In this document: positions 1,486-58,608 of the stretch, in pieces
Layout of the letters: each line of letters begins with the position of its first letter
How positions within the stretch are numbered: position 1 is the first letter of the stretch
Source: an uncultured Candidatus Saccharibacteria bacterium
Lineage (GTDB): Bacteria > Patescibacteriota > Minisyncoccia > Phycocordibacterales > WO2-35-19
Assembly: GCA_964630525.1 (NCBI GenBank)
Contig: CAZVUY010000002.1
Coordinates: 99,693 to 163,692, forward strand
Direction: 5' to 3'
DNA: 64,000 nucleotides
Position numbers and translations under genes: made by a program
The notes under the pieces: model-generated
Told to the model about the DNA's origin: nothing
What the model saw: the letters and a program-made list of their open reading frames with translations, nothing else
Database searches by the model: none

Positions 1486-1622
1486 ATTGATCGTGATTTA
1501 CTAATAAACACAAAGCCCGCCGCTAGGAAGGTCCGAAGACCTCTATGGAGTTTCCCCCATAACACGATCAATGCCCTAACGACGGGTTCTCTATCATTGA
1601 TCGTGATTTACTTGGACCATGC
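1486..1622. repeat. pair of perfect 17-nt direct repeats ATTGATCGTGATTTACT (1486-1502 and 1606-1622) flanking a GC-richer ~100-nt spacer
   Basis: Read directly from the sequence; lies in the 5' part of the 1456 ORF, which is therefore probably not coding here. Confidence 0.8.
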
Positions 1623-1701
1623 CGTTTCCGGTTTAGGTCCTGCCCTCGCGGGCTATTCGGTTGTTATTGCAATAATACCAAGTTTGGAGGAATATAGGAA
1701 T

Positions 1702-15482: not shown

Positions 15483-15510
15483 AAAATCCAAGCATCCTTG
15501 CAGGAAAAAC

Positions 15511-15577
15511 AGAAAACTAAAATTTCAAAAGCTGCAGATAAATCTCGCTTATTGAAATTTTAGTTTTCTGTTTTTCT
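15511..15577 (+). terminator. rho-independent terminator after proS
   Basis: 18-bp stem AGAAAACTAAAATTTCAA/TTGAAATTTTAGTTTTCT followed by GTTTTTCT. Confidence 0.6.
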
Positions 15578-28738: not shown

Positions 28739-28759
28739 CCAATTTTTTTGAAAATTTTG

Positions 28760-28795
28760 AAAACCGCTCCAATTTTTTGGGGCGGTTTTCTTTTT
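28760..28795 (+). terminator. terminator after the DUF378 gene
   Basis: AAAACCGCTCC...GGGGCGGTTTTC hairpin followed by a T-run. Confidence 0.5.
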
Positions 28796-28821
28796 CCCCT
28801 CTCCTAGATCTAGGAGAGGGG
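28796..28821. repeat. perfect 26-bp palindrome CCCCTCTCCTAGATCTAGGAGAGGGG about 25 nt upstream of the VirD4-like gene
   Basis: Read directly from the sequence; same CCCCTCTCC...GGAGAGGGG arms as the hairpin inside uvrB at 40408-40432. Confidence 0.8.
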
Positions 28822-28846
28822 CTAGGAGTGAGGTATAATAATATTT

Positions 28847-31594
28847 ATGGAGCACAAATTTTCTTCACCAGTATCGCCCTTCAAAAATTCTGAAGAAGAA
28901 ATTGCGCATTTGCGCCAGCTCATATCTGAGAAGGAACGAGCCTTAGAAAATATAGGTTTAAAAAGGGAGGATCTGGTTGAGGCACGAGAGACACTAGCCC
29001 AATACAAAACTGCCAAACACGCAGAAGTCTTACACCCTTCTTTTACACTCAATGAAGCCACTGTTGGAGAGCTGGCTCTCAAGTTGGCACCCGAAGAGCA
29101 TGATACTCAGATCGCTGAACTCATGAAATTAGTCAAAGAGAAAGGGATCAAGAATGCTCTTTCGGTTGTTGAGAAATTGGCTGATTTTCATATCACCGAC
29201 GACTTTCATCGCTTTGTCGCCGAATATTTAAAGGAAGGGTTTACCATCCCTGGTTTGGTAGAAAAAGAGGCAATAGCCAAGGGTTTGTCGATGGTGTTGT
29301 ATGAAGTTTTGATCCCAGAAGAGGTTGGCAGGGAAGAGACAAAAAGTTTGTCGGATATCATCGCCGGGATGGAGCAGTTTTATGCCAGCATGCTCTCACT
29401 TTCACCTGATGGCAAGAGTGCCGACAGTTGGATGTCGCTTGAGATCGCGAATGCTAATTTTTCTCAGGAAATTGTTTTTTATGTAGCCGTGCCAACTTCT
29501 CGCAGAAGCCTTTTTGAAAAATCGATCATTTCAATTTTCCATAACGTCAAGATTAGAGAAATGCCCGATGATTACAATATTTTCAACAAAACCGGTTTTA
29601 CCGCCGGCGCTTATGCTGCTTTTGCCAAAAAACCGATTTACCCGATCAAGACTTATGAAAATTTTGTCCATGATCCGCTCAACCTGATCCTCTCCAGTTT
29701 TTCCAAAGTCAATCGTGACGGAGAGGGAGCCGCGATTCAGCTTATTTGGTCGCCGATGGGAGATCGTTATTTGAAAAAATACAAAGAAGCACTTGAAAAA
29801 ATAAAAAAAGGAACACCTTTAAAAGAAGCTATCGATATCCCAGACAGTATCGGCGGTGAATTTGTCCACACTTTTAGAGATCTCTTTTCTTCCAAGCCAA
29901 CCAAGAAAGAAGGTGAGCCGGAAAAGCCGGAAATCATTGATCAGGCGGCGCTTGAAGAAATCGGCAAAAAGATAGCGGCGCCAATAATCAAATGCAATTT
30001 GCGTTTGCTCGCTTCTGCTCACACCAAAGAGGAAGCTGAGGAGATCCTCGATAGTCTGAAAGCGAGTTTCAATCAGTTTACCAACACGCTGGGCAATAGT
30101 TTCGAATGGAAGAAAACGGAAAAGGGCGCTTTGCGGTCGCTGGTGCGCAACTTTGTCTTTCGTCTTTTTGAAGATGCTTCGGCTCTGCCAATGAATCTCA
30201 AGGAGCTTAACTCTGTTATTCATTTTCATACCAAAGCCCTCAGTGCTTCTGAGGGTTTGCGCCAATCACGCTCGGCCACCGCTCAGGCACCACTCGATAT
30301 TAGTAGAGAAGGGTTGTTGTTGGGAGTGAACAAGCACCGCAACATAGAGACCGAAGTCAGGGTGTCGGAAGATGATCGGTTGAGACACTTCTACTGCATT
30401 GGGCAGACCGGTACCGGCAAATCAACTCTGCTGAAAGAAATGATCATTCAGGATATAAAGATGGGTAATGGGGTTTGTATGATCGATCCACATGGTAGCG
30501 ATGTGCAAGATGTGCTCGCCAATATTCCAAGTGAGCGGTATGAAGACCTGATCTATTTTGATCCTGGCTTCACTGCTCGACCGATGGCACTCAACATGCT
30601 CGAGTATGACCCAAACTTCCCAGAGCAAAAAACTTTTGTGGTCAATGAACTTTTCAATATTTTCCGCAAACTCTATGGCAATGTGCCGGAATCGATGGGA
30701 CCGGCCTTTGAACAATATTTCAGAAACTCGGCTCTCTTGGTAATGGAAGACCCCGCTTCCGGCAATACTCTAGTGGATATGTCGCGTGTCCTTTCTGACA
30801 AAGCATATCGCGATCTCAAACTTTCTCGTTGTAAAAACCCGCTGGTCAAGCAGTTCTGGATCAATGCCGAGAAGACGACCGGGGAGCAAGGTTTGGCCAA
30901 CTATGTGCAGTATGTCACTAACAAGTTTGATGTTTTCTTGGCCAACGAGATTATGCGGCCGATCGTCGCTCAAGAAAAATCCTCTTTCAACTTCAGAGAC
31001 ATTATGGATGGTAAAAAAATTCTTTTGGTCAATTTGGCCAAAGGTCGACTCGGCGATCTCAATGCCAACCTTATAGGCTTGATCCTAGTGGGCAAAATAC
31101 TGATGGCGGCGCTCTCCCGGGTAGATATGTTTGGTAAAGATTTTCCACCCTTTTATCTCTACATAGATGAATTTCAAAATATTACAACTGACTCAATTGC
31201 TACCATTCTTTCAGAAGCGAGAAAATACAAGCTCTCGCTGAATATTGCTCACCAGTTTATCGCTCAGCTTGAAGAAAATATCAGAGATGCTGTTTTTGGT
31301 AACGTTGGCTCACTTTGCTCTTTTAGGGTGGGGGCCGAGGATGCTGAATATTTGGAAAAGCAATTCACTCCGACTTTCGTAGCTTCCGATCTGATGAATA
31401 TCGACAATCGCAATGCCTATTTGCGGCTTTTGGTAAATGGTAAGCCCGCTAAACCTTTCAATATTGCCGTCTTGCCACCGCCAGTAGGCAACCTAGAACA
31501 GGTAGAAAATCTGAAACAACTTTCTTATGTCAGCTTCGGGCGACCTCGAGAAGAAGTGGAAAAAATGGTTTTAGAGAAATATAAAATAACTTAA
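28847..31594 (+). CDS. VirD4/TraD/TrwB-family coupling-protein-like ATPase with a ~480-aa soluble N-terminal domain of unknown function
   Basis: Walker A GQTGTGKST, IDPHG (TrwB IDPKG-like), Walker B YLYIDEF, and IAHQFIAQL of the TraG-D_C type; no N-terminal TM helices. Confidence 0.65.
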   Translation: MEHKFSSPVSPFKNSEEEIAHLRQLISEKERALENIGLKREDLVEARETLAQYKTAKHAEVLHPSFTLNEATVGELALKLAPEEHDTQIAELMKLVKEKGIKNALSVVEKLADFHITDDFHRFVAEYLKEGFTIPGLVEKEAIAKGLSMVLYEVLIPEEVGREETKSLSDIIAGMEQFYASMLSLSPDGKSADSWMSLEIANANFSQEIVFYVAVPTSRRSLFEKSIISIFHNVKIREMPDDYNIFNKTGFTAGAYAAFAKKPIYPIKTYENFVHDPLNLILSSFSKVNRDGEGAAIQLIWSPMGDRYLKKYKEALEKIKKGTPLKEAIDIPDSIGGEFVHTFRDLFSSKPTKKEGEPEKPEIIDQAALEEIGKKIAAPIIKCNLRLLASAHTKEEAEEILDSLKASFNQFTNTLGNSFEWKKTEKGALRSLVRNFVFRLFEDASALPMNLKELNSVIHFHTKALSASEGLRQSRSATAQAPLDISREGLLLGVNKHRNIETEVRVSEDDRLRHFYCIGQTGTGKSTLLKEMIIQDIKMGNGVCMIDPHGSDVQDVLANIPSERYEDLIYFDPGFTARPMALNMLEYDPNFPEQKTFVVNELFNIFRKLYGNVPESMGPAFEQYFRNSALLVMEDPASGNTLVDMSRVLSDKAYRDLKLSRCKNPLVKQFWINAEKTTGEQGLANYVQYVTNKFDVFLANEIMRPIVAQEKSSFNFRDIMDGKKILLVNLAKGRLGDLNANLIGLILVGKILMAALSRVDMFGKDFPPFYLYIDEFQNITTDSIATILSEARKYKLSLNIAHQFIAQLEENIRDAVFGNVGSLCSFRVGAEDAEYLEKQFTPTFVASDLMNIDNRNAYLRLLVNGKPAKPFNIAVLPPPVGNLEQVENLKQLSYVSFGRPREEVEKMVLEKYKIT

Positions 31595-39092: not shown

Positions 39093-41228
39093 ATGAAATT
39101 TGAGCTGAAGGCCAAATTTGATCCTGCCGGAGATCAGCCAAAAGCTATTGAAAAATTGGTGGCTGGTGTGCGAAAGGGCAAAGATCATCAAACACTGCTC
39201 GGGGTGACAGGGAGCGGCAAGACTTTTACTATTGCCAATGTGATAGAGAAGATCAATAAGCCGACTTTGGTCATTGCCCACAACAAAACCTTGGCCGCCC
39301 AACTCACTCAGGAATATCGAGAATTTTTCCCCAACAATGCTGTTCATTATTTTGTTTCTTATTACGATTTCTACCAGCCGGAAGCTTATATGCCGGTCAC
39401 CGATACTTATATAGAAAAAGAGGCAATGATCAATGAGGAGATCGAGCGGTTGCGCCACGCTTCGACCGAAGCTTTGCTCACCCGAAAAGATGTGATCATC
39501 GTGGCCTCTGTTTCTTGTATTTATGGCTTAGGTTCTCCGGAAGAATATGAAAAAGTGAATCTCAAAATCGAAGCGGAAAGCAAGATAAACCGAGCCGAGT
39601 TCTTACGAAAACTGATTTATATCCACTATGAGCGGACCAACGCTGACCTGACGCCCGGTACTTTTCGGGCGATCGGCAATATTATTGAGATCATGCCGGT
39701 CTCTGAAAAACAGGTTTATCGGCTTGAAGTGGTGGGCGACCAGATCAAATCTATCCAACAAATAGATGCTATTTCCAGAAGTATTTTGGCTGAACCGAAA
39801 GCTTTTTATCTTTTTCCGGCCAAGCATTTCATTACCGCCGAAGAAGATGTTAAAAGAGCGCTAAAATCGATCAAGGCTGAGTTGGCAGCACAACTTAAAA
39901 AATTTGAAAAAGAAGGCAAGCTTTTGGAGGCTGATCGACTAAAACGTCGCACTGGCTACGACCTCTCTATGATCAAAGAGGTTGGCTATTGCAACGGTAT
40001 CGAAAATTATTCCAGGCATTTTGATGGTCGCGAGGCGGGCGAACCACCTCACTCTCTGCTCTCTTATTTCCCAAAAGACAAAGATGGTAAGCCGGATTTT
40101 CTCACAGTGATCGATGAATCGCATGTCACCGTCTCTCAAATTGGTGGTATGTACGCCGGCGACGCCTCCAGAAAAGAAACCTTGATCGAGCATGGTTTTC
40201 GCTTGCCAAGCGCCAAAGACAATCGACCACTCAAGTTCCCTGAATTTACCGAACGGATTGGGCAGGTTATCTACACTTCAGCTACTCCGGGCAAATATGA
40301 ACTTGATAAAAGCGGGAAAGAAGGGGTGGCAGAACAAATCATTCGTCCGACAGGACTCTTGGATCCGGAAGTTTTCGTAAGACCGATCAGTCAGACCTCA
40401 CCCCCGACCCCTCTCCTTGGTAAGGAGAGGGGAGAAGTGGTTTTTTCTGATTCCCCCCTTAAGGTAAGGGGGGCTAGAGGGGATATGAATAAAAAAGCAG
40501 GTTACCCAGGCCAGATTCTCGATTTCATCAATGAGGCGGTGAAAGAAGTAAAGAAAGGCAATCGGGTTATTGCTACCACTCTTACCAAAAAGATGGCTGA
40601 GGATCTGTCTGAGTACTTAAAGGAAAAAAAGATTCGAGCTGAATATTTGCATAGTGATATCAAAACTATTGAAAGAATAGAAATTTTGACCAGGCTAAGA
40701 AAAGGGGAGTTTGATGTGTTGGTTGGGGTCAATCTCTTGCGAGAAGGTTTGGACCTGCCAGAAGTTTCTTTTATCGGCATTCTCGATGCAGACAAAGAGG
40801 GTTTTTTGCGAAGCGAAACTTCTTTGATTCAGACGATCGGTCGGGCAGCCCGCAACGTCGAGGGGCGAGTCATCCTTTATGCCGATCAGCTGACTGGTTC
40901 GATGGAGCGCGCAATCTCAGAAACAAATCGTCGGCGTGCTTTGCAGATCGCTTACAACAAAGCGCACGGTATCACGCCGCAGACCATCAAGAAAGAAATA
41001 AAAGATATCACCGAACAAATGCAACGAGAGCACAAAAAGGCGGTGGGTACGCTCCTTGCGATAGATTTGAAGAAGGGGGGCAAGGACGGACTCTCTGCTA
41101 AACAGGTGGCCAAATTGATCAAGACCAAAGAAAAACAAATGAACGCCGCCGTCAAAATCCTCGATTTCGAATCCGCCGCCATCCTCCGTGATGAGATTAA
41201 GGAATTGGAGAAAATGATCTCGGGCTAG
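39093..41228 (+). CDS. uvrB: excinuclease ABC subunit B with a ~39-aa in-frame insertion
   Basis: GVTGSGKTFTIAN Walker A, beta-hairpin region, C-terminal UvrC-interaction helix; insertion between VRP and QILDF relative to the canonical UvrB core. Confidence 0.9.
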   Translation: MKFELKAKFDPAGDQPKAIEKLVAGVRKGKDHQTLLGVTGSGKTFTIANVIEKINKPTLVIAHNKTLAAQLTQEYREFFPNNAVHYFVSYYDFYQPEAYMPVTDTYIEKEAMINEEIERLRHASTEALLTRKDVIIVASVSCIYGLGSPEEYEKVNLKIEAESKINRAEFLRKLIYIHYERTNADLTPGTFRAIGNIIEIMPVSEKQVYRLEVVGDQIKSIQQIDAISRSILAEPKAFYLFPAKHFITAEEDVKRALKSIKAELAAQLKKFEKEGKLLEADRLKRRTGYDLSMIKEVGYCNGIENYSRHFDGREAGEPPHSLLSYFPKDKDGKPDFLTVIDESHVTVSQIGGMYAGDASRKETLIEHGFRLPSAKDNRPLKFPEFTERIGQVIYTSATPGKYELDKSGKEGVAEQIIRPTGLLDPEVFVRPISQTSPPTPLLGKERGEVVFSDSPLKVRGARGDMNKKAGYPGQILDFINEAVKEVKKGNRVIATTLTKKMAEDLSEYLKEKKIRAEYLHSDIKTIERIEILTRLRKGEFDVLVGVNLLREGLDLPEVSFIGILDADKEGFLRSETSLIQTIGRAARNVEGRVILYADQLTGSMERAISETNRRRALQIAYNKAHGITPQTIKKEIKDITEQMQREHKKAVGTLLAIDLKKGGKDGLSAKQVAKLIKTKEKQMNAAVKILDFESAAILRDEIKELEKMISG
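40408..40473. repeat. two GC-rich perfect hairpins inside the uvrB CDS: CCCCTCTCC-TTGGTAA-GGAGAGGGG (40408-40432) and CCCCCCTTA-AGG-TAAGGGGGG (40453-40473)
   Basis: Read directly from the sequence; they encode the uvrB insertion segment. Confidence 0.8.
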
Positions 41229-41291: not shown

Positions 41292-41717
41292 ATGATTTTG
41301 CAGCTGCTCACTGAGCTGAACCAGGATCTTCCAGTGGATGATCCGCCACAACAGAAGGTCCAACCGGGTGACAAGGTCCTGGGAGTGGTCGGCATACAGG
41401 CTCAACGCCTGTTTTCGATCATTCAACGCCATGCCAATCTGGTCGACGCGAAGGCCGCCCAGCTCAAGGATGGAAGTATTTCCATCAATGATATGAGGCG
41501 TATTGTGAGGGAGATCAAGGATGATCTGCGCCGCCTGACGTTGCTGGGGCAGGTCTTTTGGACCGAGATCCGGGAAGAGGTGGGTGTTCCGGATGGCGAG
41601 CTATTGATCTGTGAGGACTGGAAAGTGGTTGCATCAGAGGTCGTCGACGAGGACTGCGGCGATCCCAACTGTCCGGCCCATGGCCACAAGCACACAAGTG
41701 AATCTGCTGCCGACTAA
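41292..41717 (+). CDS. hypothetical protein (GC-rich island gene 1) with C-terminal CGDPNCPAHGH Cys/His cluster
   Basis: 141-aa ORF with coding-like composition; first gene of the GC-rich island. Confidence 0.4.
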   Translation: MILQLLTELNQDLPVDDPPQQKVQPGDKVLGVVGIQAQRLFSIIQRHANLVDAKAAQLKDGSISINDMRRIVREIKDDLRRLTLLGQVFWTEIREEVGVPDGELLICEDWKVVASEVVDEDCGDPNCPAHGHKHTSESAAD

Positions 41718-41726
41718 TCGGGCTCA

Positions 41727-41758
41727 GGCCCCCATCGCTTTGCGATGGGGGCCTTTTT
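41727..41758 (+). terminator. strong rho-independent terminator
   Basis: GGCCCCCATCGC-TT-TGCGATGGGGGCC followed by TTTTT. Confidence 0.7.
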
Positions 41759-41871
41759 AAAGAAAGTGTTACTAACGCTTGAAAAATGTACACAGACAGT
41801 TGACTTTTTATATAACGAATGATATTATTCGGTTAGAATTTTGTCCTTTTAAATTAAAGGAGATAGAGACA

Positions 41872-43353
41872 ATGAGATTTCTTTATGCTACTGATTTGCA
41901 TGGAAATCGGGATGCTATTGAGCAAGCTTTCCAAGTGGCTCACGAAGAGCGGGTTGGGGCTATTGTATTTGGTGGCGACCTGACTCCCAAGTCAGTGGCA
42001 ATCAAGTTGGCCCACTATCCTGATCCTTCTAAAGAAGAAGTTGAGTTTGAGGGAGAAATTCCTCTGCTTGGCGGCGAAGTATTACCAACTCACCTACTGG
42101 AAGACGAGCAGCACATCCACACTTTTACAAAGAGTCTGGAGCGTGTGAAAAAACTCAACCAACAGTTGGGTTCGGATGTCCTTGCAGAACAACTTGTTCG
42201 TAAGGGATCAATCCTTCACGAGCTTAAAAACCAATACTACGAGATTGAGTCTATGCTCTCAGAGCAGATCCTTCTCGACAAATTGTATGCTTTCTTTCGC
42301 GATGCTGGCACTAACAGTCGAACACGACTTGAACTCTCCGATGAGGAGGTTGAGATCGTCAAAGACTGTGTGGCCGAGTGGCTTGCAGAATACGAGAAAG
42401 GACTAATGGATAGTCAAAAGTCAGCTTTTTTAGCTAAATGTAAACAAACATTTGGTTACGAGGGTGATGACTTTTTGGCCGTCGCACCGTCGCGACACAT
42501 CTTGGAATGTATCCTCTACGAACTTTCGAGTGGAAATCTGTCAGATGTTTTTGTTCCGATTGAAAATTTGCTTAAGAGTAAGAAGGGGTACATCGCGGGG
42601 CGACTTCTAAAGTTTTTCCACGACGAGCAGAATAGAATTTTCCGATCCGGTGCCTACAAAGGCATGATCGAGGAGTCTTGGATTGGGGCCTTGCCCTATT
42701 ACTCAACTATCGCTCAGCTCAAACGAGACGTAGAGAAAACGGAATTCTTAGGAGCGGAGCAAGCAAAATTCCTTCGGGAGTTTTTCTTCCCGCTTGTTCG
42801 GGGATGGAATGCGACACACCCAAACCAGCCCGTGTACGCCATGCTTGGCAACGACGACATCATCGAAAATGTCTCGTTGCTAGATGAAGCGGAACGGGAA
42901 GGTCTACTCTGTCATATGCATGGCGACAAAGTCAGCATGTTCGACGGTGATCTTAATATCGTCGGCTACAGCTTTGTTGAAACTCTGCCTCCCAAGGTTG
43001 AGTACCGTGCATGGGTCAAGAATGCTAGTGACATCCTATGCGATCTGAAGTCTCTCTGGTTTAGCCTGAGACACAGGAAAGCAATTTGGGTGATCCACAA
43101 TCCGCCGTTCGGCTACGTCGACCAGATCGTCGGCGGCCACGCTGGAAGCCAAGGGGTGCTAGAGTTTTTGGAGCAATTCAAACCCTCCTTAGCGCTTTTC
43201 GGACACATTCACGAAGCACCGCGACTCGCAGGAGATTTTACGGCTAAACTTGGAGAAACGCTCTGCGTCAATCCAGGAGGAGAACATGAAAATGGGCTCC
43301 AAGCTGTTATTATTAATTCAGAAACTTTGGAAGTGGAGAGGAGGTGGCTATGA
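41872..43353 (+). CDS. calcineurin-like metallophosphoesterase with a long internal insertion (GC-rich island gene 2)
   Basis: RBS AAGGAG 8 nt upstream; N-terminal LYATDLHGN...VFGGDL and C-terminal NPPFGY...LFGHIHEA phosphoesterase motifs. Confidence 0.65.
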   Translation: MRFLYATDLHGNRDAIEQAFQVAHEERVGAIVFGGDLTPKSVAIKLAHYPDPSKEEVEFEGEIPLLGGEVLPTHLLEDEQHIHTFTKSLERVKKLNQQLGSDVLAEQLVRKGSILHELKNQYYEIESMLSEQILLDKLYAFFRDAGTNSRTRLELSDEEVEIVKDCVAEWLAEYEKGLMDSQKSAFLAKCKQTFGYEGDDFLAVAPSRHILECILYELSSGNLSDVFVPIENLLKSKKGYIAGRLLKFFHDEQNRIFRSGAYKGMIEESWIGALPYYSTIAQLKRDVEKTEFLGAEQAKFLREFFFPLVRGWNATHPNQPVYAMLGNDDIIENVSLLDEAEREGLLCHMHGDKVSMFDGDLNIVGYSFVETLPPKVEYRAWVKNASDILCDLKSLWFSLRHRKAIWVIHNPPFGYVDQIVGGHAGSQGVLEFLEQFKPSLALFGHIHEAPRLAGDFTAKLGETLCVNPGGEHENGLQAVIINSETLEVERRWL

Positions 43354-43949
43354 TGCAGATGATGAGATTTAATCTAGCGCCCCGTTTCGAGTTGCGTCAG
43401 GAGCAGAGGATAGCGCACTTGCAGATTCTTTGCGCGCCGAAACCGCCTAATGCAGTTTGTGGTATTGAGGGTATGAAAGTTGCTGACAGCGTACTCAAGG
43501 AAATGGGAGTTGTTGGTATGTTGATTGGTGGCTTGGCTAAAGAACTTTGGTCTGGCGTATCGGACGAAGAACGTTTGTTGAAACATAAGGATGTTGATGT
43601 GCTGGTGCTTTCGCACGACTGCACATTTCATCCGAAAAAATGGGCGAGCGGTATCGATTGGTGGGTAAGCCATGATCCACAACAGCGCCCAACGAATGGC
43701 AATCCGGTTGGATTGCTGTGGCGGGTGCGGTTGGATTTGCATGCGCGAAATATCCCAAAAGGGTTGTATTTGTGCCCGCTGCAACTTCTTCGTGAATCGG
43801 TTGTGATGGAACGACGCTTTCTCAAGGGTCGTAAGGTGGTTGGCGGACGTTTTAAGGACAATCCCGCTTCTCTGTATCCGTCTTTGGACGAGATGCAGCT
43901 TCGATGGGACTGGGCAGGTTTAGAAGACCCTGTTGCGGACTATTGCTGA
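43350..43949 (+). CDS. hypothetical protein, possibly minimal nucleotidyltransferase-fold (GC-rich island gene 3)
   Basis: RBS AGGAGG before ATG 43350; loose IGG...x19...DVDV match to the pol-beta NTase motif. Confidence 0.3.
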   Translation: MMQMMRFNLAPRFELRQEQRIAHLQILCAPKPPNAVCGIEGMKVADSVLKEMGVVGMLIGGLAKELWSGVSDEERLLKHKDVDVLVLSHDCTFHPKKWASGIDWWVSHDPQQRPTNGNPVGLLWRVRLDLHARNIPKGLYLCPLQLLRESVVMERRFLKGRKVVGGRFKDNPASLYPSLDEMQLRWDWAGLEDPVADYC

Positions 43950-43962
43950 CAACGTTTGATAG

Positions 43963-43993
43963 GTGGCTATGCCTTCGGCTGGCCACCTTTTTG
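43963..43993 (+). terminator. terminator at the end of the GC-rich island
   Basis: GGTGGC...GCCACC hairpin followed by TTTTTG. Confidence 0.6.
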
Positions 43994-44056
43994 TTATCGC
44001 AGGAACGTATTTTATATATTTGACTCTTTTGGGGGGATTTGGTAGCCTTATTCGGT

Positions 44057-48000: not shown

Positions 48001-48080
48001 AAGCTTAGAGCTAAAAGGTAAAAGCTTAGAGAATGAAATCAACACTTGCAACTTTAAGCTCTAAGCTCTAAGCTTTAAGC
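48001..48080. repeat. small palindromic element with AAGCTTAGAGC / GCTCTAAGCTT terminal inverted repeats, between secY and adk
   Basis: AAGCTTAGAGCTAAAAGG...AAGCTCTAAGCTCTAAGCTTTAAGCT; related copies at 55645-55720 and 59535-59570. Confidence 0.7.
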
Positions 48081-48081
48081 T

Positions 48082-48675
48082 ATGATGCAACCACAAACTT
48101 TCATATTCTTTGGTCCATCGGGTTCCGGCAAGGGGACTCAGGCCAAGCTTCTTATTGATAAAATTAAAGAAAAAGACAGCAGTAAACCTGTTTTATATGT
48201 AGAAACAGGTCAAAAACTTAGGGACTTTGCAACCGAAGCTTCTTTCGCCGCTCGAGAAGCCAAAAATATAATGGAGTCAGGCGGCCTGCTTCCAGAATTT
48301 TTGCCGATTTGGATCTGGACAGAATATTTTATTCGACATGTTGCAGGCGATGAGCACTTGGTACTTGACGGGCTTTCGAGGAGGGCTCATGAAGCACCTA
48401 TCCTTGATTCAGCCATGAAGTTTTACAAAAGAGAAAATCCTTTTGTGATTTCCATAGATTTGCCGCGCGAAGTGGCTGCAGATCGTTTGCGCAACCGCAA
48501 GAGAAGTGATGACACAAATCTTGATATCGAAAAGAGGCTTGACTGGTACGACGAAAATGTTTTACCTGCAATCGAATATTTCAAAAGAAATCCTTACTAT
48601 CGTTTTATTTCTATTGGTGGTGATCAAAGTGTTGAGGTGGTCCATCAGGAAATTTTGAATAAAATCGGCTTTTAA
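48082..48675 (+). CDS. adk: adenylate kinase
   Basis: GPSGSGKGTQ P-loop. Confidence 0.9.
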   Translation: MMQPQTFIFFGPSGSGKGTQAKLLIDKIKEKDSSKPVLYVETGQKLRDFATEASFAAREAKNIMESGGLLPEFLPIWIWTEYFIRHVAGDEHLVLDGLSRRAHEAPILDSAMKFYKRENPFVISIDLPREVAADRLRNRKRSDDTNLDIEKRLDWYDENVLPAIEYFKRNPYYRFISIGGDQSVEVVHQEILNKIGF

Positions 48676-50808: not shown

Positions 50809-52186
50809 TTCGAAATTAATTTTTTATGGCGGGGTCGGGACAACAACTGGGGCCAACATTTTGCTTGATGGTGGTGACAAAAAAATAATGGTTGATTGCG
50901 GACTCCTGCAAGGAGCTAGACAATCTGAAATGAAGAATTTTAAACCTTTTGCTTATGACCCTAAATCTATCGATTTTTTGCTTATTACCCACGCCCACAT
51001 GGACCATATAGGCAGAGTACCCAAATTAGTCAGGGAGGGTTTCAATGGCCAGATCATCTCTACTCAGGAGACCTTGGAGCTTGCCCAACCAATGCTCCAG
51101 GATGCTCTCCGGGTGATGCAGACTAGACACAAAGGCAGCACTCTTTTTGAGCTGAAGGATATCGAAAAAGCGCTTACCCTCTGGCGGGGCTATAAATACG
51201 GTGAAGTGATCGGTTTGGGTCAGTCTTGCCAACTTAGCATGATAGATGCTGGTCATATCCTCGGTTCGGCCATTTTAAACATTACTTGTGGTGATGGGGA
51301 AAATAAGAAAAATATTGTTTTTACTGGCGACCTAGGCAATTCACCATCGCCTCTTTTGTCAGATACTCAAATTCCCAAAGACGCAGATTATTTGATAATG
51401 GAGAGTGTCTATGGCGATCGCAATCATGAACCCAAGGCGGAAAGACGGGCCAGATTAAAACAAGCAATTCTGAATGGTATCGAGAAAGGGGGGACGATTG
51501 TTATTCCAGCATTTTCGATCGAACGAACCCAGGTGTTGCTCTACGAAATAAACAATATGGTGGAAGACAAAGAAATTCCGACTATACCGGTTTTTCTGGA
51601 CTCACCATTAGCTAGCAAAGTTACTCATATTTATAAAAAGCATCAAGACAATTTCAAAAAATCGGTCCAGGAAGAGATCAAAAATGGCGATGATATTTTT
51701 GATTTCCCGAATCTCAAAATAATCGGCCGGTCAGCTGAGTCGCGAGAAATCGAAAACGTGAAGGGAGCTAAGATTATTTTGGCTGGTTCGGGTATGTCAG
51801 AGGGTGGGAGGGTGGTCAATCACGAGCTCAATTATCTAGGCGACCCGAAAGCCACTATTCTCTTGGTCGGATATCAGTCGGTCGGGTCGCTCGGTAGAAA
51901 AATAGCCGAAAAACCAAAAGAAATTGAAATAGTGGATAATGGTCGGCGAGAAAAAATAAAAGTCAGAGCCACAATAGAAAGTATTATGGGCTATTCTTCC
52001 CACAAAGACTCCGAGCATCTTTTGGAATTTGTCGAGCAGGTGATCAGCAAGTCTGCCCATCTCAAGAAAGTTTTTGTGATTATGGGCGAACCTAAATCCT
52101 CTCTTTTTCTCACTCAACGCGTCCGCGACTATCTAGATATCGAAGCTATTTATCCGGAAGTGGGAAAGGAGTATATTTTGGAGTGA
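50798..52186 (+). CDS. beta-CASP family MBL-fold ribonuclease (RNase J/CPSF-like)
   Basis: ITHAHMDHIGRVP HxHxDH motif, beta-CASP and C-terminal region, about 460 aa. Confidence 0.75.
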   Translation: MKVNSKLIFYGGVGTTTGANILLDGGDKKIMVDCGLLQGARQSEMKNFKPFAYDPKSIDFLLITHAHMDHIGRVPKLVREGFNGQIISTQETLELAQPMLQDALRVMQTRHKGSTLFELKDIEKALTLWRGYKYGEVIGLGQSCQLSMIDAGHILGSAILNITCGDGENKKNIVFTGDLGNSPSPLLSDTQIPKDADYLIMESVYGDRNHEPKAERRARLKQAILNGIEKGGTIVIPAFSIERTQVLLYEINNMVEDKEIPTIPVFLDSPLASKVTHIYKKHQDNFKKSVQEEIKNGDDIFDFPNLKIIGRSAESREIENVKGAKIILAGSGMSEGGRVVNHELNYLGDPKATILLVGYQSVGSLGRKIAEKPKEIEIVDNGRREKIKVRATIESIMGYSSHKDSEHLLEFVEQVISKSAHLKKVFVIMGEPKSSLFLTQRVRDYLDIEAIYPEVGKEYILE

Positions 52187-52198
52187 AAACATGCTAGT

Positions 52199-52429
52199 AT
52201 GATATTTATGAAAAGGGAATTTACAGCTATATATAAAAAAAGCGGAAATTGGTTTCTGGCTTGGGTAGAAGAAATTCCTGGTGTAAATACTCAAGGTAGG
52301 ACATTGAAAGAAGTAAAAGAAAACCTAAAAGAAGCTATTCGGCTTGTCATTGAATCGAATAGAAACATCTATTCCGGCAAATTTGCCGATCTTAAAAGAG
52401 AACCAATATCAATAAAAATGTCGGTCTAA
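52199..52429 (+). CDS. hicB: HicB-family antitoxin
   Basis: EFTAIYKKSGNWFLAWVEEIPGVNTQGRTLKEVKENLKEAI is the UPF0150/HicB fold signature. Confidence 0.7.
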   Translation: MIFMKREFTAIYKKSGNWFLAWVEEIPGVNTQGRTLKEVKENLKEAIRLVIESNRNIYSGKFADLKREPISIKMSV

Positions 52430-52430
52430 A

Positions 52431-52625
52431 ATGAAAAGACTGAAGTTTGTTTTGCATCTAAATTTTTATCACTGCATTTTGATCAGAGAAGGGGCTAAAC
52501 ATTCTGTTTTCTACAATACAAAAACGGGACAAACATCAACCGTACCAAGACATTCTGAAATAAATAATTTTCTTGCTCGCAAAATTTGCCGAGATTTGGG
52601 GATACCAATAATAAAACTAAGATAG
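52431..52625 (+). CDS. hicA: HicA-family mRNA interferase toxin
   Basis: 64-aa basic protein with ...TVPRHSEINNFLARKICRDLGIP; starts 2 nt after the hicB stop. Confidence 0.65.
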   Translation: MKRLKFVLHLNFYHCILIREGAKHSVFYNTKTGQTSTVPRHSEINNFLARKICRDLGIPIIKLR

Positions 52626-52638
52626 AGTAATAAAAGCC

Positions 52639-52660
52639 CCGCGTCTGGTGAAGGACGCGA
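52639..52660. terminator. bidirectional hairpin between convergent hicA and rny
   Basis: CGCGTC-N8-GACGCG; U-rich on the minus side. Confidence 0.5.
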
Positions 52661-52694
52661 GGCGAGGTGAAGTTTAATAGCGTAGGTTTTGAGG

Positions 52695-54227
52695 TTACCT
52701 CGCAAATTCGATGGTGCGGGATTCGCGGATGACGACGACTTTGATTTCGCCTGGGTATTTGAGTTCATTTTCGATACGGACGGCGATATCGCGAGCCATG
52801 TTCTTGGCTTCTAGGTCGGTGACTTGAGCTGGAGTGACGAACACCCGCAGCTCGCGACCAGCCTGGAGGGCGTAAGCCTTTTCGACCCCGGTGATTGCAG
52901 TGGCGATCGATTCGAGGTCACCAAGTCGTTTTAGATAATTTTCCACACTGTCTCTTCTTGCCCCTGGTCTGGCTCCAGAAATAGCGTCAGCGGCTTGGAC
53001 GATATAAGATTCTAGAGTGGAATAAGGATATTCGCCGTGGTGGGATTCCATGGCACGAATGATCCGCTCATCTGCCCCAAATTTTTGAAGGATTCGGCGA
53101 CCGATTTCAACATGGGTACCAGCGATCTCGTGGTCTACGGCTTTGCCGATATCGTGAAGGAGAGCACCCGCTTTGGCGATGGCGACATTGGCACCTATTT
53201 CAGTAGCGATCATGCCCGCTACGTGTGCCATCTCAACTGAGTGTTGGAGAACATTTTGGCCGTAAGAAGTGCGGAAATGGAGGCGACCAAGTATGCTAAT
53301 AATTCGAGGATCCAAGTTGAAGACACCGCATTCGTAAGCGGCTTGTTCACCCTTTTCTTTCATTATTTTGTTAATTTCCTGTCTCGCTTTTTCAACCATT
53401 TCTTCTATTTTGGCTGGCTGAATACGACCGTCTTGGATAAGGTTTTCAAGGGCTACCCGAGCGATCTGGCGACGTACTGAGTCATACGAGGAGAGGGTGA
53501 TCAGGCCTGGTGTATCATCTACTATCACTTCTACTCCGGAAGCTCTCTCAAAAGCTTTGATGTTGCGACCCTCTTTACCGATAATTTTACCCTTGATTTC
53601 ATCAGAAGGGATGGCGACCGTGGTCGAGAAGACTTCAGATGATACAGAATTGGCCAATCGCTGGATTGAGGTGGTCAGTATCTCTTTGGCACGATTTTCA
53701 ATCTTTTCGTTGCCGCCATTTTCTAATTTTTGCATCCTAACGATCACGTCCTCTTCCGCTTTGCGCTCGATTTCCTTCATCAACAGGTCTTTGGCTTGTT
53801 CTTCGGAAAGGCCGGCTATCCTCTGCAAATCAGCTGTCTTCTGCTTTTCTAGAGACTCTGCTTTTTCACGAATGATTTTTATTTCGGCTACTCTTTCTTT
53901 GACCTGCTCTACTTCTTTGTCGATATCAAGTTGTCTTTTGTCCAAGAATTCCTCTTTTTTGATCAGGCGATCTTCGGTCTTTTTTAACTTTTCTTCTTTC
54001 TCTTTAAACTCATTCCTGGTTTCTTTGGCTAATTCTTCAGCCTTGGTGGTCGCTTCCTCGATGATCTTCTTGGCCTCTTCCTTGGCGTGCAGCTCCATCT
54101 GCTTGATGCGCAACTCTACCGAACCTCTTTGGCCCAACGAAATGATCCAGCGCAAGAAATACCCAAAAGCCACACCCAATAGGGCAGCTAGACCTGAGAG
54201 CAGTATCGCTAACTTTAATGACAGCAT
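52695..54227 (-). CDS. rny: ribonuclease Y
   Basis: N-terminal TM, coiled coil, KH domain, HD domain (LLHDIGKAVDHE). Confidence 0.9.
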   Translation of the reverse strand: MLSLKLAILLSGLAALLGVAFGYFLRWIISLGQRGSVELRIKQMELHAKEEAKKIIEEATTKAEELAKETRNEFKEKEEKLKKTEDRLIKKEEFLDKRQLDIDKEVEQVKERVAEIKIIREKAESLEKQKTADLQRIAGLSEEQAKDLLMKEIERKAEEDVIVRMQKLENGGNEKIENRAKEILTTSIQRLANSVSSEVFSTTVAIPSDEIKGKIIGKEGRNIKAFERASGVEVIVDDTPGLITLSSYDSVRRQIARVALENLIQDGRIQPAKIEEMVEKARQEINKIMKEKGEQAAYECGVFNLDPRIISILGRLHFRTSYGQNVLQHSVEMAHVAGMIATEIGANVAIAKAGALLHDIGKAVDHEIAGTHVEIGRRILQKFGADERIIRAMESHHGEYPYSTLESYIVQAADAISGARPGARRDSVENYLKRLGDLESIATAITGVEKAYALQAGRELRVFVTPAQVTDLEAKNMARDIAVRIENELKYPGEIKVVVIRESRTIEFAR

Positions 54228-55152: not shown

Positions 55153-55887
55153 ATGAGACTGCATCGTTTTTTTGTTGATTTCAATATTTCTCAGACTGAA
55201 TTTAGTGTTAAGGATGAGCGCCTAGTTCATCAATGGCGCAATGTGTTTAGATACAATACCGGTAGCGAGCTAATTCTTTTTGATGGCAGCGGGTACGAAT
55301 ACGACTGCTTGATTCAGAACCTAAACAACAGGGAAGCTGTTTTAGAAGTGGTTAGAAAAAGAGAGGGGGTTTTGCCAAAACATAAAATTACTCTCTACCA
55401 ATCAATCATCAAGAAGGACAAAATGGAATGGATAGTCGAAAAGGCGACTGAGCTTGGAGTTTCCAAAATCGTACCAATCATTTCTGAAAGGAGCGAGAAA
55501 AAAGATTTGAATCTGGAGCGAATGCAAAAAATTGCGATTGAGGCTGCTGAACAATGCGGTAGGGCGGATGTACCAATTATCAGCGATGTTACAAGTTTAG
55601 ATGAGGCTTTAAAATATTGTGAAAATGCGGTGACTTGTGATTTGTCTGGAAGCTTAGAGCTAAAAGCTGAAAGCTTAAAGAAAACTCTTAGCTCTAAGCT
55701 TAAACCTCTAAGCTTGTTCGTCGGTCCTGAAGGTGGTTGGTCTGACAATGAGATTGAGCTATTTAAGCAAAAAGGAGTGCAAATATTTAGTTTGGGAAAG
55801 CTTACCCTAAGAGCAGAAACGGTCGCTATTGTAGGTTTGTCAAAAATTCAGACCTCAAACCAGCTACTAATTTTCCAAAAGCTTTAG
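55153..55887 (+). CDS. rsmE: 16S rRNA m3U1498 methyltransferase
   Basis: RsmE N-terminal PUA-like and C-terminal SPOUT motifs (GPEGGW). Confidence 0.8.
   Translation: MRLHRFFVDFNISQTEFSVKDERLVHQWRNVFRYNTGSELILFDGSGYEYDCLIQNLNNREAVLEVVRKREGVLPKHKITLYQSIIKKDKMEWIVEKATELGVSKIVPIISERSEKKDLNLERMQKIAIEAAEQCGRADVPIISDVTSLDEALKYCENAVTCDLSGSLELKAESLKKTLSSKLKPLSLFVGPEGGWSDNEIELFKQKGVQIFSLGKLTLRAETVAIVGLSKIQTSNQLLIFQKL
55645..55720. repeat. copy of the AAGCTTAGAGCT palindromic element inside the rsmE CDS
   Basis: AAGCTTAGAGCTAAAAGCTGAAAGCTTAAAG...CTTAGCTCTAAGCTTAAACCTCTAAGCTT; its first 17 nt match 48001-48017 exactly. Confidence 0.7.
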
Positions 55888-57517: not shown

Positions 57518-58444
57518 CTAGCGTCTGCTGTGGAATTTTTTGTGGATGTCGCGGAGGTGGCGGTCGGTGACATGAGTGTAGATCTGGGTGGTGCCGATAT
57601 TGGCGTGGCCGAGGAGAGCTTGGACAGAACGCAAATCAGCACCGTTCCCAAGCAAGTCGGTGGCAAACATGTGGCGCATGGTGTGAGGAGTCACTTTTTT
57701 AGAGATACCAGCTTTGATAGCGCGCTGTTTGATAATCCGCTCTATCGAGCGCCCTGTGAGGCCGATATTACCTTTTCTTTGTTTGGTAGTTTTGCCGTTG
57801 CGAGAGAGCTGGACAAAGAGGGCTTCATCGAGATCTTTTCTTTTGTCTAAATATTTTTTCAAAATTTTCTTGGCTTCATCAGAAATGAAGACGACCCGCA
57901 CCTTGCTACCTTTGCCGCGGATAGAAAGTTCGTCGGTTGAAAGGTCGAGGTCGCGAGTGAGCGAACAGAGTTCGGAGACTCGCAGCCCAGTGGAGAAAAG
58001 TAGTTCCAAGATGGCTCGATCTCGCAGATCAGTGATTTCTTCGCCATCGGCAGAAGCGAGGAGCCTTTTCAATTCCGCTTCAGTGATCAGTTCGAGTGAA
58101 CGCTCGGGCACCTTGGCGAGCTCGATCCGCTCGGCGGGCAGAGTCTTTATTTCTTGCCGAGCCAAGTATTTGAGAAAAGCGCGGAGAGCGATCAAATAAT
58201 AATTTTGAGTTTTTTTCGATATAGTATCGCTGGTTTTCTTGTTTTTGCCGGTCACTTGTCGGTTGAGCCAAAGGCGGAATTCGCGCACCGCGTCATCGCT
58301 TATGTCGGCGGGGGATTTGAGACCTGTGTGTTCCAAAAATACACTCAAGTAATGATCATAATTTTCGACCGTCTTCAGCGATCGCCCTTTTTCGATTTCC
58401 ACATATTCGAGAAATTGTCTTTTGAGTTGTTGTAAGTCTTTCAT
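57518..58444 (-). CDS. xerC: tyrosine recombinase XerC/XerD family
   Basis: R...HxxR...Y catalytic region HTMRHMFATDLL...LLGHANIGTTQIYTHV. Confidence 0.85.
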   Translation of the reverse strand: MKDLQQLKRQFLEYVEIEKGRSLKTVENYDHYLSVFLEHTGLKSPADISDDAVREFRLWLNRQVTGKNKKTSDTISKKTQNYYLIALRAFLKYLARQEIKTLPAERIELAKVPERSLELITEAELKRLLASADGEEITDLRDRAILELLFSTGLRVSELCSLTRDLDLSTDELSIRGKGSKVRVVFISDEAKKILKKYLDKRKDLDEALFVQLSRNGKTTKQRKGNIGLTGRSIERIIKQRAIKAGISKKVTPHTMRHMFATDLLGNGADLRSVQALLGHANIGTTQIYTHVTDRHLRDIHKKFHSRR

Positions 58445-58578: not shown

Positions 58579-58608
58579 AGGCCGCCTCGCGCATGCGCGA
58601 GGCGGCCT
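58579..58608 (-). terminator. perfect palindrome AGGCCGCCTCGCGCATGCGCGAGGCGGCCT
   Basis: Immediately downstream of the 58613-59092 gene. Confidence 0.6.

What the first reader, a model, noticed from the sequence alone, without database searches (positions are those of the whole stretch)
40385..40512. About 117-nt in-frame insertion in uvrB made of two GC-rich perfect hairpins, one sharing arms with the palindrome upstream of the VirD4-like gene
Relative to the canonical UvrB core, about 39 extra residues sit between the VRP and QILDF segments. The DNA encoding them is two perfect hairpins (9-bp stems). The first, CCCCTCTCC-N7-GGAGAGGGG, has the same arms as the 26-bp palindrome at 28796. This resembles in-frame palindromic-element insertions (RPE-like) known from some reduced genomes. 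It is a mobile palindromic repeat family that tolerates or exploits coding insertion.
Basis: partly seen in the sequence, partly recalled or inferred. Interest (0 to 1): 0.65.

Follow-up and report, generated by a model that had tools for sequence, protein, structure and literature searches.

The report
Triplex-hairpin repeat pair inside uvrB
A 99-base pair of GC-rich hairpin repeats, from a family found across bacteria and viruses, sits in frame in a flexible loop of the DNA-repair gene uvrB of a tiny CPR bacterium; relatives carry many other such insertions at the same spot, so this is a counterpart of the Rickettsia palindromic elements, not a new kind of system.

Summary
uvrB (39093-41228) carries a 99-nt in-frame insert (about 40398-40496). 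It holds two perfect hairpins with 11-bp and 9-bp stems, and hairpin 1 shares its arms with the palindrome at 28796.

The insert is absent from two relatives at 93% nt identity and from the next two outgroups. It is present in a 97% relative, where the 3-nt loop of hairpin 1 is flipped.

Each hairpin has a flanking mirror-repeat G-strand (ACCTCACCCC / GGGGTGAGG type). That makes them "intrastrand triplex motifs" (PIT / TM_ECO / BoxC class, Holder 2015). The same motif occurs in at least 120 genome stretches from many phyla and at least 120 viral contigs.

The encoded 33 residues model as a disordered loop just before the Helicase_C domain.

The site is a hot spot. 52 of 120 Paceibacteria UvrBs carry at least 8 extra residues there, from several unrelated palindromic families, against at most 8 at any other internal site. 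Similar in-frame insertions occur in tgt and rsmE, including this window's rsmE.

Best reading: tolerated selfish or structure-prone repeat DNA, working like Rickettsia RPEs and intragenic REPs. Mobility is inferred and the machinery is unknown. I rate it a new variant of a known kind, of moderate interest.

The parts
39093..41228 (+). uvrB gene (711 aa), host of the insertion
   Evidence: ORF. Pfam ResIII, UvrB_inter, Helicase_C, UvrB and UVR. E = 2e-235 to solved UvrB structures.
40398..40496 (+). 99-nt in-frame insert (33 codons) relative to the closest insert-free relatives; boundaries uncertain by about 6 nt
   Evidence: DNA alignment with L001/L002 (empty site) and L003 (filled). Outgroups L204 and L205 are also empty. 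AlphaFold2 gives residues 435-471 pLDDT below 50 and coil.
40395..40432 (-). Triplex motif 1. Read on the minus strand: CCCCTCTCCTT-ACC-AAGGAGAGGGG-TC-GGGGGTGAGGT, that is hairpin 40408-40432 plus mirror third strand 40395-40405.
   Evidence: My triplex scanner finds 0 mismatches among the triads. The same architecture appears in 122 of 142 copies from other genomes. The 3-nt loop is inverted in L003.
40433..40452 (+). Spacer AGAAGTGGTTTTTTCTGATT between the two motifs. Its 5' part (GAAGTGGTT) is a weaker plus-strand third strand for hairpin 1.
   Evidence: one mismatch. The spacer 3' end plus motif 2 (40442-40471) is 100% identical over 30 nt to the insert in L206, whose uvrB is 69% identical overall.
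40453..40485 (+). Triplex motif 2: CCCCCCTTA-AGG-TAAGGGGGG-CTA-GAGGGGATA, with a degenerate third strand
   Evidence: The canonical form, hairpin + N5 + GGGGGGTTAT, is seen in viral contigs L210 and L211. It is also implied by the relatives' peptide SPLKVRGARGVMKK.
40486..40496 (+). A-rich right end of the insert (TGAATAAAAAA), next to the ambiguous junction with the ancestral AAAAAT
   Evidence: Alignments. No target-site duplication is recognisable.
28796..28833 (+). Intergenic copy of triplex motif 1 in the opposite orientation: 26-bp perfect palindrome + CTA + GGAGTGAGG (one triad mismatch)
   Evidence: It is conserved in relative L002, which has a different single mismatch.
28759..28790 (+). 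Terminator-like hairpin with a T-run, immediately upstream of the intergenic copy. This is context for that copy, not part of the repeat.

Best explanation
The insert is a composite of two GC-rich hairpin repeats in head-to-head orientation, about 99 bp in all. Each hairpin has a mirror-repeat purine strand beside it. This is the intrastrand-triplex-motif class, known as PIT, TM_ECO or BoxC.

It entered the uvrB coding sequence in the lineage of this genome after its split from the L001/L002 lineage. It persists because three conditions hold:
- Its length is a multiple of three.
- Its polypurine/polypyrimidine sequence has no stop codon in the frame used.
- It lies in a surface loop between the last strand before helicase domain 2 (VFVRP) and that domain's first helix (QILDFINE).

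There it is translated into about 33 disordered residues that UvrB tolerates.

It is best seen as selfish or structure-prone DNA, not as an adaptation of UvrB. Its DNA-level properties (hairpin and possibly triplex formation) explain three things: its origin, its further rearrangement, and the repeated filling of this one permissive site by different palindromic families in Paceibacteria.

Shown: anatomy, family membership, presence/absence, the hot spot, in-frame copies in other genes.

Inferred: translation, neutrality, mobility and direction of change. The insertion machinery is unknown.
For: 1. Recent gain. The insert is absent in L001/L002 (93% nt identity) and in outgroups L204/L205. It is present in L003 at 97% identity.

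2. DNA-level dynamics. In L003 the loop GGT is replaced by its reverse complement ACC, and motif 2 has a stem mismatch. In L206 the same composite carries a nested extra hairpin.

3. Family.
- CCCCTCTCCT-N0-10-AGGAGAGGGG occurs in at least 120 genome stretches from many phyla, including several Patescibacteria lineages.
- 122 of 142 copies carry GGG[T/A]GAGG, or its complement, within 30 nt.
- This matches the published triplex motif and its purine-motif pairing rules.

4. The insert is younger or more constrained than its host gene. The longest exact run shared by the window and L206 uvrB genes is 30 nt and lies inside the insert. No run elsewhere in the gene exceeds 17 nt, at 69% overall identity.

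5. Tolerated loop.
- The match to solved structures splits exactly at the insert.
- Residues 435-471 have pLDDT 27-47 and no secondary structure.
- Helicase_C starts at residue 479.

6. Hot spot.
- 52 of 120 homologues have at least 8 extra residues at this site, against at most 8 at any other internal site.
- 11 of 15 long inserts have stems longer than at least 48 of 50 control segments; mean longest stem is 13 against 5.6.
- 6 of the 11 triplex motifs found in 557 kb of Paceibacteria loci lie at this one site.

7. The same elements occur in frame elsewhere.
- Motif-1 hairpins lie in TilS, a P-type ATPase and the xanthine-dehydrogenase Fe-S subunit, among others.
- TSPPTPLLxKERG occurs in a cyanobacterial AMP-binding protein and in a Paceibacteria RsmE.
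- A different palindromic family lies in frame in both tgt and uvrB of L207.

8. Precedent. Intragenic REP/RPE elements in repair genes, including excinuclease genes, are published.
Against: - No transposase, terminal target duplication or other insertion signature was found. The published work also found none for this motif class.
- Only three triplex-motif loci are visible in the 64-kb window, and the rest of this genome was not available.
- Gain is favoured over loss only by parsimony on four to six sequences. L001/L002 share an ACC codon with the left edge of the element, which could be an excision footprint.
- The extreme concentration at one site is more than simple tolerance obviously predicts, so targeting or allelic transfer may contribute.
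- Translation of the loop and normal UvrB activity are not shown.
- Triplex formation in duplex DNA was not supported in vivo in E. coli.
Confidence: 0.75

Rival explanations
1. Allelic transfer or in-situ turnover rather than de novo insertion. On this view the hinge insert is old in Paceibacteria. It moves between lineages by homologous recombination of uvrB segments. It is then remodelled in place by inversion between arms, nested insertions and deletions back to the 9-residue base state. The hot spot would reflect history, not repeated insertion.
For: - The same composite (motif 1, spacer, motif 2) sits at the same site in uvrB genes only 69% identical.
- Insert families recur in separate branches of a rough NJ tree.
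- Divergence is 33% in the 30 nt either side of the insert against 5.9% elsewhere, p = 3e-10.
- Loop and arm inversions are seen directly. The L127 copy of the family-C element is reversed relative to L207.
Against: - Outgroup polarisation splits the flank substitutions evenly between lineages (10 against 9), so no clean imported tract is visible.
- Unrelated families occupy the site: triplex motifs, CGTC-type REPs, a 47-nt palindrome, and elements with 20-bp terminal inverted repeats.
- Motif 1 is read in different frames in the window and in L206.
- The same families also occur at other loci and in other genes, so they do reach new sites.
Confidence: 0.2
2. Nucleic-acid-level function. The hairpins or triplex in uvrB DNA or mRNA have been co-opted, for example to pause transcription or translation between the two helicase domains, or to tune uvrB expression in response to DNA supercoiling or damage.
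For: - Perfect 11-bp and 9-bp GC-rich stems in a 45% GC gene.
- The hairpins are retained in the 97% relative.
- The position is exactly at a domain boundary.
- Non-B DNA is a known substrate or target of repair proteins (discussion in PMC4666352).
Against: - The 93% relatives and about half of all orthologues lack any insert.
- Inserts at the site differ in sequence, length and structure, and some have no hairpin.
- Motif 2 is already decaying in both strains.
- Earlier work found no promoter or terminator activity for this motif.
Confidence: 0.07
3. Protein-level adaptation. The extra 33 residues form a lineage-specific functional loop of UvrB, for example a new interaction surface, and the hairpins are incidental.
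For: The reading frame is kept open. The composite is shared by some distant UvrBs, with SPLKVRGARG conserved.
Against: - The segment is predicted to be disordered.
- The peptide changes when the hairpin loop flips, G to T.
- Conservation is at the DNA level: 30 nt are identical while the host genes are 69% identical.
- The same DNA is read in other frames elsewhere.
- The insert is absent from the nearest relatives.
Confidence: 0.05
4. The segment is not translated. It would be removed from the mRNA, or bypassed by the ribosome as with the GC-rich 'byp' inserts of yeast mitochondria. Alternatively it is an assembly artefact.
For: GC-rich hairpin inserts in an AT-rich genome resemble byp elements (my own knowledge, not tested here).
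Against: - All inserts examined at this site are multiples of three with no stop codon. The eight loci that first failed my pattern were ordinary in-frame genes.
- The insert occurs in two independent assemblies with small differences.
- No Rfam family matches the region.
Confidence: 0.02

Closest known systems
Intrastrand triplex motifs: PIT elements (Hoyne/Maher 2000), TM_ECO (Holder et al. 2015, PMC4666352), BoxC of E. coli
   Same: - The anatomy matches: C-rich arm, short loop, G-rich arm, a second loop of about 3 nt, then a G-rich mirror strand obeying G.GC / A.AT / T.AT triads.
- Copies are dispersed and highly conserved, often in inverted pairs.
- They are linked to local sequence instability.
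- No transposase is known.
   Different: - The arm sequence differs: CCCCTCTCC here against CCCTCNCCC.
- The host is a CPR bacterium, not a proteobacterium.
- The copy lies inside a gene and in frame, whereas in E. coli the motif is reported as always intergenic.
- I also find the motif in many viral contigs, whereas the paper reported no association with phages or plasmids.
Rickettsia palindromic elements (RPEs; Ogata et al. 2000, as summarised in PMC10969869 and PMC3733652)
   Same: - Palindromic repeats inserted in frame into housekeeping genes of a small-genome bacterium.
- They are translated as extra surface segments.
- Several families exist.
- uvrB and uvrC are among the hosts in R. 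conorii.
   Different: - No sequence relationship.
- The units are shorter (about 35 nt, here paired to 99 nt, against about 100-150 nt for RPE-1).
- The triplex-type third strand is present here.
- The phylum is different.
- The UvrB position reported in R. conorii (residues 537-545 and 761-769 of an 838-aa protein) is not evidently this one.
GTAG/CGTC-tagged REPs and their intragenic copies in DNA-repair genes (Di Nocera et al. 2013, PMC3733652)
   Same: - Short hairpin repeats, often as inverted dimers encoding 20-30 residues.
- They are found inside excinuclease, polymerase and tRNA/rRNA-modification genes.
- One relative (L202) carries CGTC-type units (VIPAKAGI / DSRFRGND) in this same UvrB site.
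   Different: - The window's hairpins lack the GTAG or CGTC tag.
- No RAYT-type transposase was seen in the parts of the window I scanned.
MITEs
   Same: Small size, non-coding origin, inverted-repeat architecture, presence/absence between strains. Some other inserts at this site have 20-bp terminal inverted repeats (L207, L208).
   Different: For the window's insert I found no target-site duplication, no recognisable terminal inverted repeats matching an IS, and no parent IS.

Membership tests
Intrastrand triplex motif (PIT / TM class, Holder 2015) | Watson-Crick hairpin with a pyrimidine (C-rich) arm and a purine (G-rich) arm of about 8-15 nt and a loop of 1-6 nt | tested here: met
   Motif 1 has an 11-bp stem and 3-nt loop. 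Motif 2 has a 9-bp stem and 3-nt loop. The copy at 28796 has a 13-bp stem.
Intrastrand triplex motif (PIT / TM class, Holder 2015) | A third strand after a short second loop that mirrors the purine arm and obeys G.GC, A.AT and T.AT triads, with at most one mismatch | tested here: met
   Motif 1 on the minus strand has 0 mismatches. Motif 2 and the 28796 copy each have 1 mismatch in an 8-nt scan. There were 0 hits in 30 shuffled windows.
Intrastrand triplex motif (PIT / TM class, Holder 2015) | Many conserved, dispersed copies within and across genomes | tested here: met
86% of copies carry the mirror strand. Within this genome only 3 loci could be seen, in 64 kb.
TM_ECO / BoxC sensu stricto | Consensus CCCTCNCCC-N3-6-GGGNGAGGG-N3-GGGNGAGGG | tested here: not met
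   The arms here are CCCCTCTCC / GGAGAGGGG and CCCCCCTTA / TAAGGGGGG. This is the same class but a different sequence family.
Intrastrand triplex motif (PIT / TM class, Holder 2015) | Actual triplex formation by the single strand (CD or NMR) | not testable with these tools
   Only the pairing rules could be checked.
Rickettsia palindromic elements (RPE) | Palindromic repeat inserted in frame in ORFs that encode otherwise normal proteins | tested here: met
Rickettsia palindromic elements (RPE) | Sequence or peptide similarity to one of the RPE families; Rickettsia host | tested here: not met
   The host is Paceibacteria, judged from the UvrB hits. The RPE/CGTC peptides listed in PMC3733652 (SFPRKRES, VIPAKAGI, DSRFRGND) do not occur in the window's insert.
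REP (GTAG/CGTC super-families) mobilised by RAYT | GTAG or CGTC tetranucleotide at one foot of the hairpin | tested here: not met
   The feet of the hairpins read CCGA|CCCC...GGGG|AGAA and GATT|CCCC...GGGG|CTAG. Neither tag is present.
REP (GTAG/CGTC super-families) mobilised by RAYT | A cognate Y1 (RAYT) transposase gene in the genome | tested here: inconclusive
   None appeared among the 10 window ORFs scanned or in the gene tables of the related loci. Most of the genome was not available.
MITE | Terminal inverted repeats plus a target-site duplication | tested here: not met
   Comparing filled and empty sites shows no duplication. The two ends are only loosely complementary.
Programmed translational bypass inserts (byp-like) | Inserts not constrained to multiples of three, or containing stop codons | tested here: not met
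   All inserts at this site are in frame and free of stops.

The most novel reading that the evidence does not exclude
Triplex-motif hairpins, together with several other palindromic families, may be an active, pan-prokaryotic and virus-borne class of insertion elements with still unknown machinery. In CPR bacteria they would be directed to a handful of specific sites in housekeeping genes: the UvrB domain 1/3 hinge, the RsmE loop before GPEGGW, and a TGT loop. Targeting would come from local DNA structure or sequence rather than from tolerance alone. These elements would then be a main source of the lineage-specific protein insertions typical of CPR proteomes.
Probability: 0.15. Interest if true: 0.7.

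Novelty: new variant of a known kind. Interest (0 to 1): 0.42.

Why it matters
This extends two known phenomena into new territory. Triplex-motif repeats were described as strictly intergenic in E. coli. In-frame palindromic insertions were described mainly in Rickettsia and a few REP-rich species. Neither has been reported in candidate-phyla-radiation bacteria.

It also shows that one codon-level site in UvrB has been filled again and again by unrelated hairpin elements, in 52 of 120 orthologues.

Practical value:
- It warns annotators that odd 'low-complexity loops' in CPR proteins (PLLxKERG, SPLKVRGARGVM, YFSAEKSP and similar) are repeat DNA read through.
- It gives a natural map of insertion-tolerant loops.
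- It provides matched filled and empty alleles for studying how these elements move and how hairpin loops invert.

It does not point to a new biochemical system.

Tried and rejected
- **Exhaustive phmmer of the 40-aa peptide.** Only three hits. One is a chance match to an unrelated repetitive 1656-aa protein; two are informative.
- **Rfam.** Nothing in or near the insert; the window has only two tRNAs and a LOOT RNA.
- **Folding energy.** It is a weak discriminator here because shuffled C-runs and G-runs also fold well.
- **Target-site duplication or excision footprint.** None is clear. The shared ACC codon in L001/L002 is ambiguous.
- **Import by recombination.** Flank divergence is strongly elevated, but outgroup polarisation is symmetric, so the test is inconclusive.
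- **NJ tree to count independent gains.** Branch lengths are too short and the method too crude for a number. I use it only to show that filled and empty states are interleaved.
- **Intein, intron and bypass readings.** Considered and rejected on size, reading frame and lack of any domain or RNA family.
- **Literature.** Searches for CPR/Patescibacteria with palindromic or MITE insertions returned nothing relevant in the held library.
Full report
**1. The observation**

The ORF at 39093-41228 (+) encodes a 711-aa UvrB with the usual domains: ResIII, UvrB_inter, Helicase_C, UvrB and UVR. Between FVRP and QILDF lies extra sequence. Its DNA contains two perfect hairpins:
- CCCCCCTTA-AGG-TAAGGGGGG at 40453-40473, with a 9-bp stem.

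The arm pair CCCCTCTCC...GGAGAGGGG occurs exactly twice in the window, here and at 28796-28821. None occurred in 100 shuffles.

Against solved UvrB structures the match breaks exactly at the insert. Query 2-432 and 473-709 align to chain 4-427 and 429-659, which leaves about 39 extra residues.

**2. Whether it is an insertion, and how old**

The organism is a CPR bacterium of the Paceibacteria/Parcubacteria group. I infer this from the names attached to its UvrB relatives.

| Sequence | Identity to window | State of the site |
|---|---|---|
| P0003, P0004 (DNA loci L001, L002) | 93% | Empty: VRPLSETKNYPGQI, 33 residues shorter |
| L003 | 97% nt / 99% aa | Filled |
| L204, L205 (next outgroups) | 82% and 81% aa | Empty |

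The DNA alignment gives a clean 99-nt gap at about 40398-40496. Parsimony therefore favours a gain on the window/L003 branch.

I found no target-site duplication. L001/L002 share an ACC codon with the left edge of the element. This could be coincidence, microhomology or a footprint.

Two changes in L003 are informative:
- The 3-nt loop of hairpin 1 is replaced by its reverse complement (GGT to ACC, which changes Gly to Thr). This is what recombination between the arms would produce.
- Hairpin 2 has a stem mismatch.

**3. What the hairpins are**

I estimate about six would be expected by chance. The hits span Cyanobacteria, Bacteroidota, Chloroflexota, Ignavibacteria, Armatimonadota, several Patescibacteria lineages and even Bathyarchaeia.

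The flanks are not random. 122 of 142 copies carry GGG[T/A]GAGG within 30 nt on one side, or its complement on the other side.

A full-text search for that string led to Holder et al. 2015 (PMC4666352). That paper describes 'intrastrand triplex motifs', also called PIT elements or BoxC, and TM_ECO in E. coli. The anatomy is a C-rich arm, a loop, a G-rich arm, a 3-nt loop, and then a G-rich strand that mirrors the purine arm and can form G.GC, A.AT and T.AT triads. These motifs are highly conserved, always intergenic in E. coli, have no known transposase, and are linked to local genomic instability.

The window's copies fit this description:
- **Motif 1 in uvrB**, read on the minus strand, is CCCCTCTCCTT-ACC-AAGGAGAGGGG-TC-GGGGGTGAGGT, with no illegal triad.
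- **The intergenic copy** at 28796-28833 is the same motif in the other orientation, with one mismatch.
- **Hairpin 2** is followed by CTA-GAGGGGATA, a degraded mirror strand.

My scanner finds exactly these three loci in 64 kb and none in 30 shuffled windows.

The intact form of motif 2 is hairpin + N5 + GGGGGGTTAT. It appears in two viral contigs and is implied by the relatives' peptide SPLKVRGARGVMKK.

The insert is therefore two triplex motifs head to head, with their third strands pointing outward, joined by a 20-nt spacer. The arm sequences differ from the E. coli consensus, so this is the same class but a different family.

**4. The protein side**

An AlphaFold2 model built on 65 homologues has mean pLDDT 74. 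Residues 435-471 score 27-47 with no secondary structure. They lie between strand 426-430 and helix 474-487. Helicase_C starts at residue 479.

The site is thus the junction before the second helicase domain (UvrB domain 3).

All inserts seen at this site are multiples of three and free of stop codons. This argues for read-through translation rather than bypass or splicing.

**5. A hot spot**

- Among the 120 best UvrB hits, 52 have at least 8 extra residues at exactly this position. The next-richest internal site has 8, and each of the others has 1.
- In 80 further uvrB loci from metagenomes, the base state is 9 residues (IxEKGxYKG) in about 50 loci. The rest carry 1-84 extra residues there.

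The insert DNAs are mostly palindromic:
- the same motif 1 in L127;
- other triplex motifs in L172, L179 and L202;
- CGTC-type REPs (VIPAKAGI / DSRFRGND) in L202;
- a 47-nt perfect palindrome in L126;
- a 51-nt hairpin in L209;
- elements of about 95 nt with roughly 20-bp terminal inverted repeats in L207 and L208.

Eleven of 15 long inserts have a longest stem exceeding at least 48 of 50 control segments from the same genes. The mean longest stem is 13 against 5.6.

Of the 11 triplex motifs found in 557 kb of Paceibacteria loci, six lie at this one site.

L206 has a uvrB only 69% identical to the window's, yet it carries the same composite with a nested extra hairpin. The longest exact run the two genes share is 30 nt and lies inside the insert. 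No run elsewhere exceeds 17 nt. So the element is younger, or more constrained, than its host gene.

**6. How general the phenomenon is**

- Sixteen of the 142 genome copies of motif 1 lie in long open frames. Pfam shows real in-frame insertions between or within domains of TilS, a P-type ATPase, a xanthine-dehydrogenase Fe-S/FAD subunit, a PatG protease and others.
- An exhaustive phmmer search with the 40-aa peptide recovered a cyanobacterial AMP-binding protein with five tandem TSPPTPLLxKERG units. It also recovered a small ORF of tandem SPLKVRGARGVM units.
- In L207 the ~95-nt 'family C' element lies in frame in both uvrB and the neighbouring tgt gene, which is 444 aa instead of about 398. 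L127 carries the same element reversed.
- In this very window, rsmE (55153-55887) contains an inverted repeat at 55650-55701. Its 17-mer recurs in the strain-variable intergenic region at 48001-48081. RsmE relatives are hypervariable at exactly that point, and one of them carries TSPPTPLLLKERG.

**7. Interpretation**

The most economical reading is tolerated repeat DNA. A structure-prone, dispersed element landed in a permissive loop in an open frame and is read through. This is functionally the same phenomenon as Rickettsia RPEs and the intragenic REPs that Di Nocera et al. found enriched in repair genes, including excinuclease genes.

Unresolved points:
- How the elements move. No transposase or duplication was seen.
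- Why one site is so favoured.

Divergence is 33% within 30 nt of the insert against 5.9% elsewhere (p = 3e-10). The changes are split evenly between lineages. So I cannot tell imported DNA from local instability or relaxed constraint.

Allelic transfer and in-situ turnover remain a serious partial rival. A regulatory or protein-level function is unlikely, given the absence from close relatives, the heterogeneity of the inserts and their visible decay.

**8. Novelty**

Triplex motifs and in-frame palindromic insertions are both published. I did not find any of the following in the held literature:
- triplex-motif elements inside genes;
- their presence in CPR bacteria and in many viral contigs;
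- a codon-level hot spot shared by unrelated families.

I rate this a new variant of a known kind, of moderate interest.

Noticed in passing
window 55650-55701 (inside rsmE, 55153-55887) and window 48001-48081: A second palindromic repeat family (AAGCTTAGAGCT; 7 matches against 0.4 expected) lies in frame inside rsmE, giving the peptide SLELKAES..LKKTLSSKLKP. It also occurs in an intergenic region. RsmE relatives are hypervariable at exactly this point, and some carry triplex-motif peptides, for example P0128 ATSPPTPLLLKERGD.
   Followed up: yes
window 48001-48091; L002 16383-16499; L003 14256-14372: This intergenic region holds a different element in the close relatives. Between L002 and L003 the ~29-nt loop of a long hairpin is present in opposite orientations, a second case of arm-mediated inversion.
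   Followed up: partly
L207 9322-9405 (tgt) and 11303-11412 (uvrB); L208 tgt; L127 3433-3523: A ~95-nt element with roughly 20-bp terminal inverted repeats (peptide ...YFSAEKSP...KVALEK) lies in frame in two neighbouring genes of one genome. It is reversed in another genome's uvrB. tgt has its own insertion hot spot after EHKKS.
   Followed up: yes
viral loci L212-L331, e.g. L215 (5 copies in 7.3 kb), L261, L305; L210 and L211: The full motif-1 pattern (28 specified bases) hits at least 120 IMG/VR viral contigs, with 157 copies, 35 of them inside long open frames. This contrasts with the published statement that the E. coli motif is not associated with phages. Viruses could carry the family between phyla.
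   Followed up: partly
window 28818-28849; L038 3780-3800: The intergenic motif's third strand runs straight into TATAATAATATTTATG, a -10-like box about 7 nt before the ATG of the 915-aa DUF8128/TraG-like gene. That spacing suggests a leaderless mRNA. An Amesbacteria copy (L038) has nearly the same arrangement.
   Followed up: no
window 41292-44017: A segment of about 2.7 kb between uvrB and rpsH is absent from the 97%-identical relative L003. It carries ORFs of 141 aa (no Pfam hit), 524 aa (metallophosphoesterase) and 201 aa, and is preceded by a 13-bp GC-rich hairpin at 41726-41754.
   Followed up: partly
window 57518-58444 (-) and 58579-58608: A phage-integrase/XerC-like gene lies next to a 30-bp perfect GC-rich palindrome (AGGCCGCCTCGCGCA|TGCGCGAGGCGGCCT).
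   Followed up: no
L202 1936-2199: The longest UvrB hinge insert (84 extra residues) combines two CGTC-type REP hairpins (ATTCCCGC-GAAA-GCGGGAAT; VIPAKAGI / DSRFRGND) with a triplex motif. Different repeat classes pile up in the same loop.
   Followed up: partly
window 1528-1639 (-); 15504-15576; 5955-5994: A LOOT RNA (RF03000, 53 bits). A 25-nt perfect inverted repeat with a 23-nt spacer. A 40-bp perfect AT-rich palindrome.
   Followed up: no
window 52111-52702: About 590 bp here correspond to only about 80 bp in L003 (18392-18471). This is another strain-specific indel.
   Followed up: no
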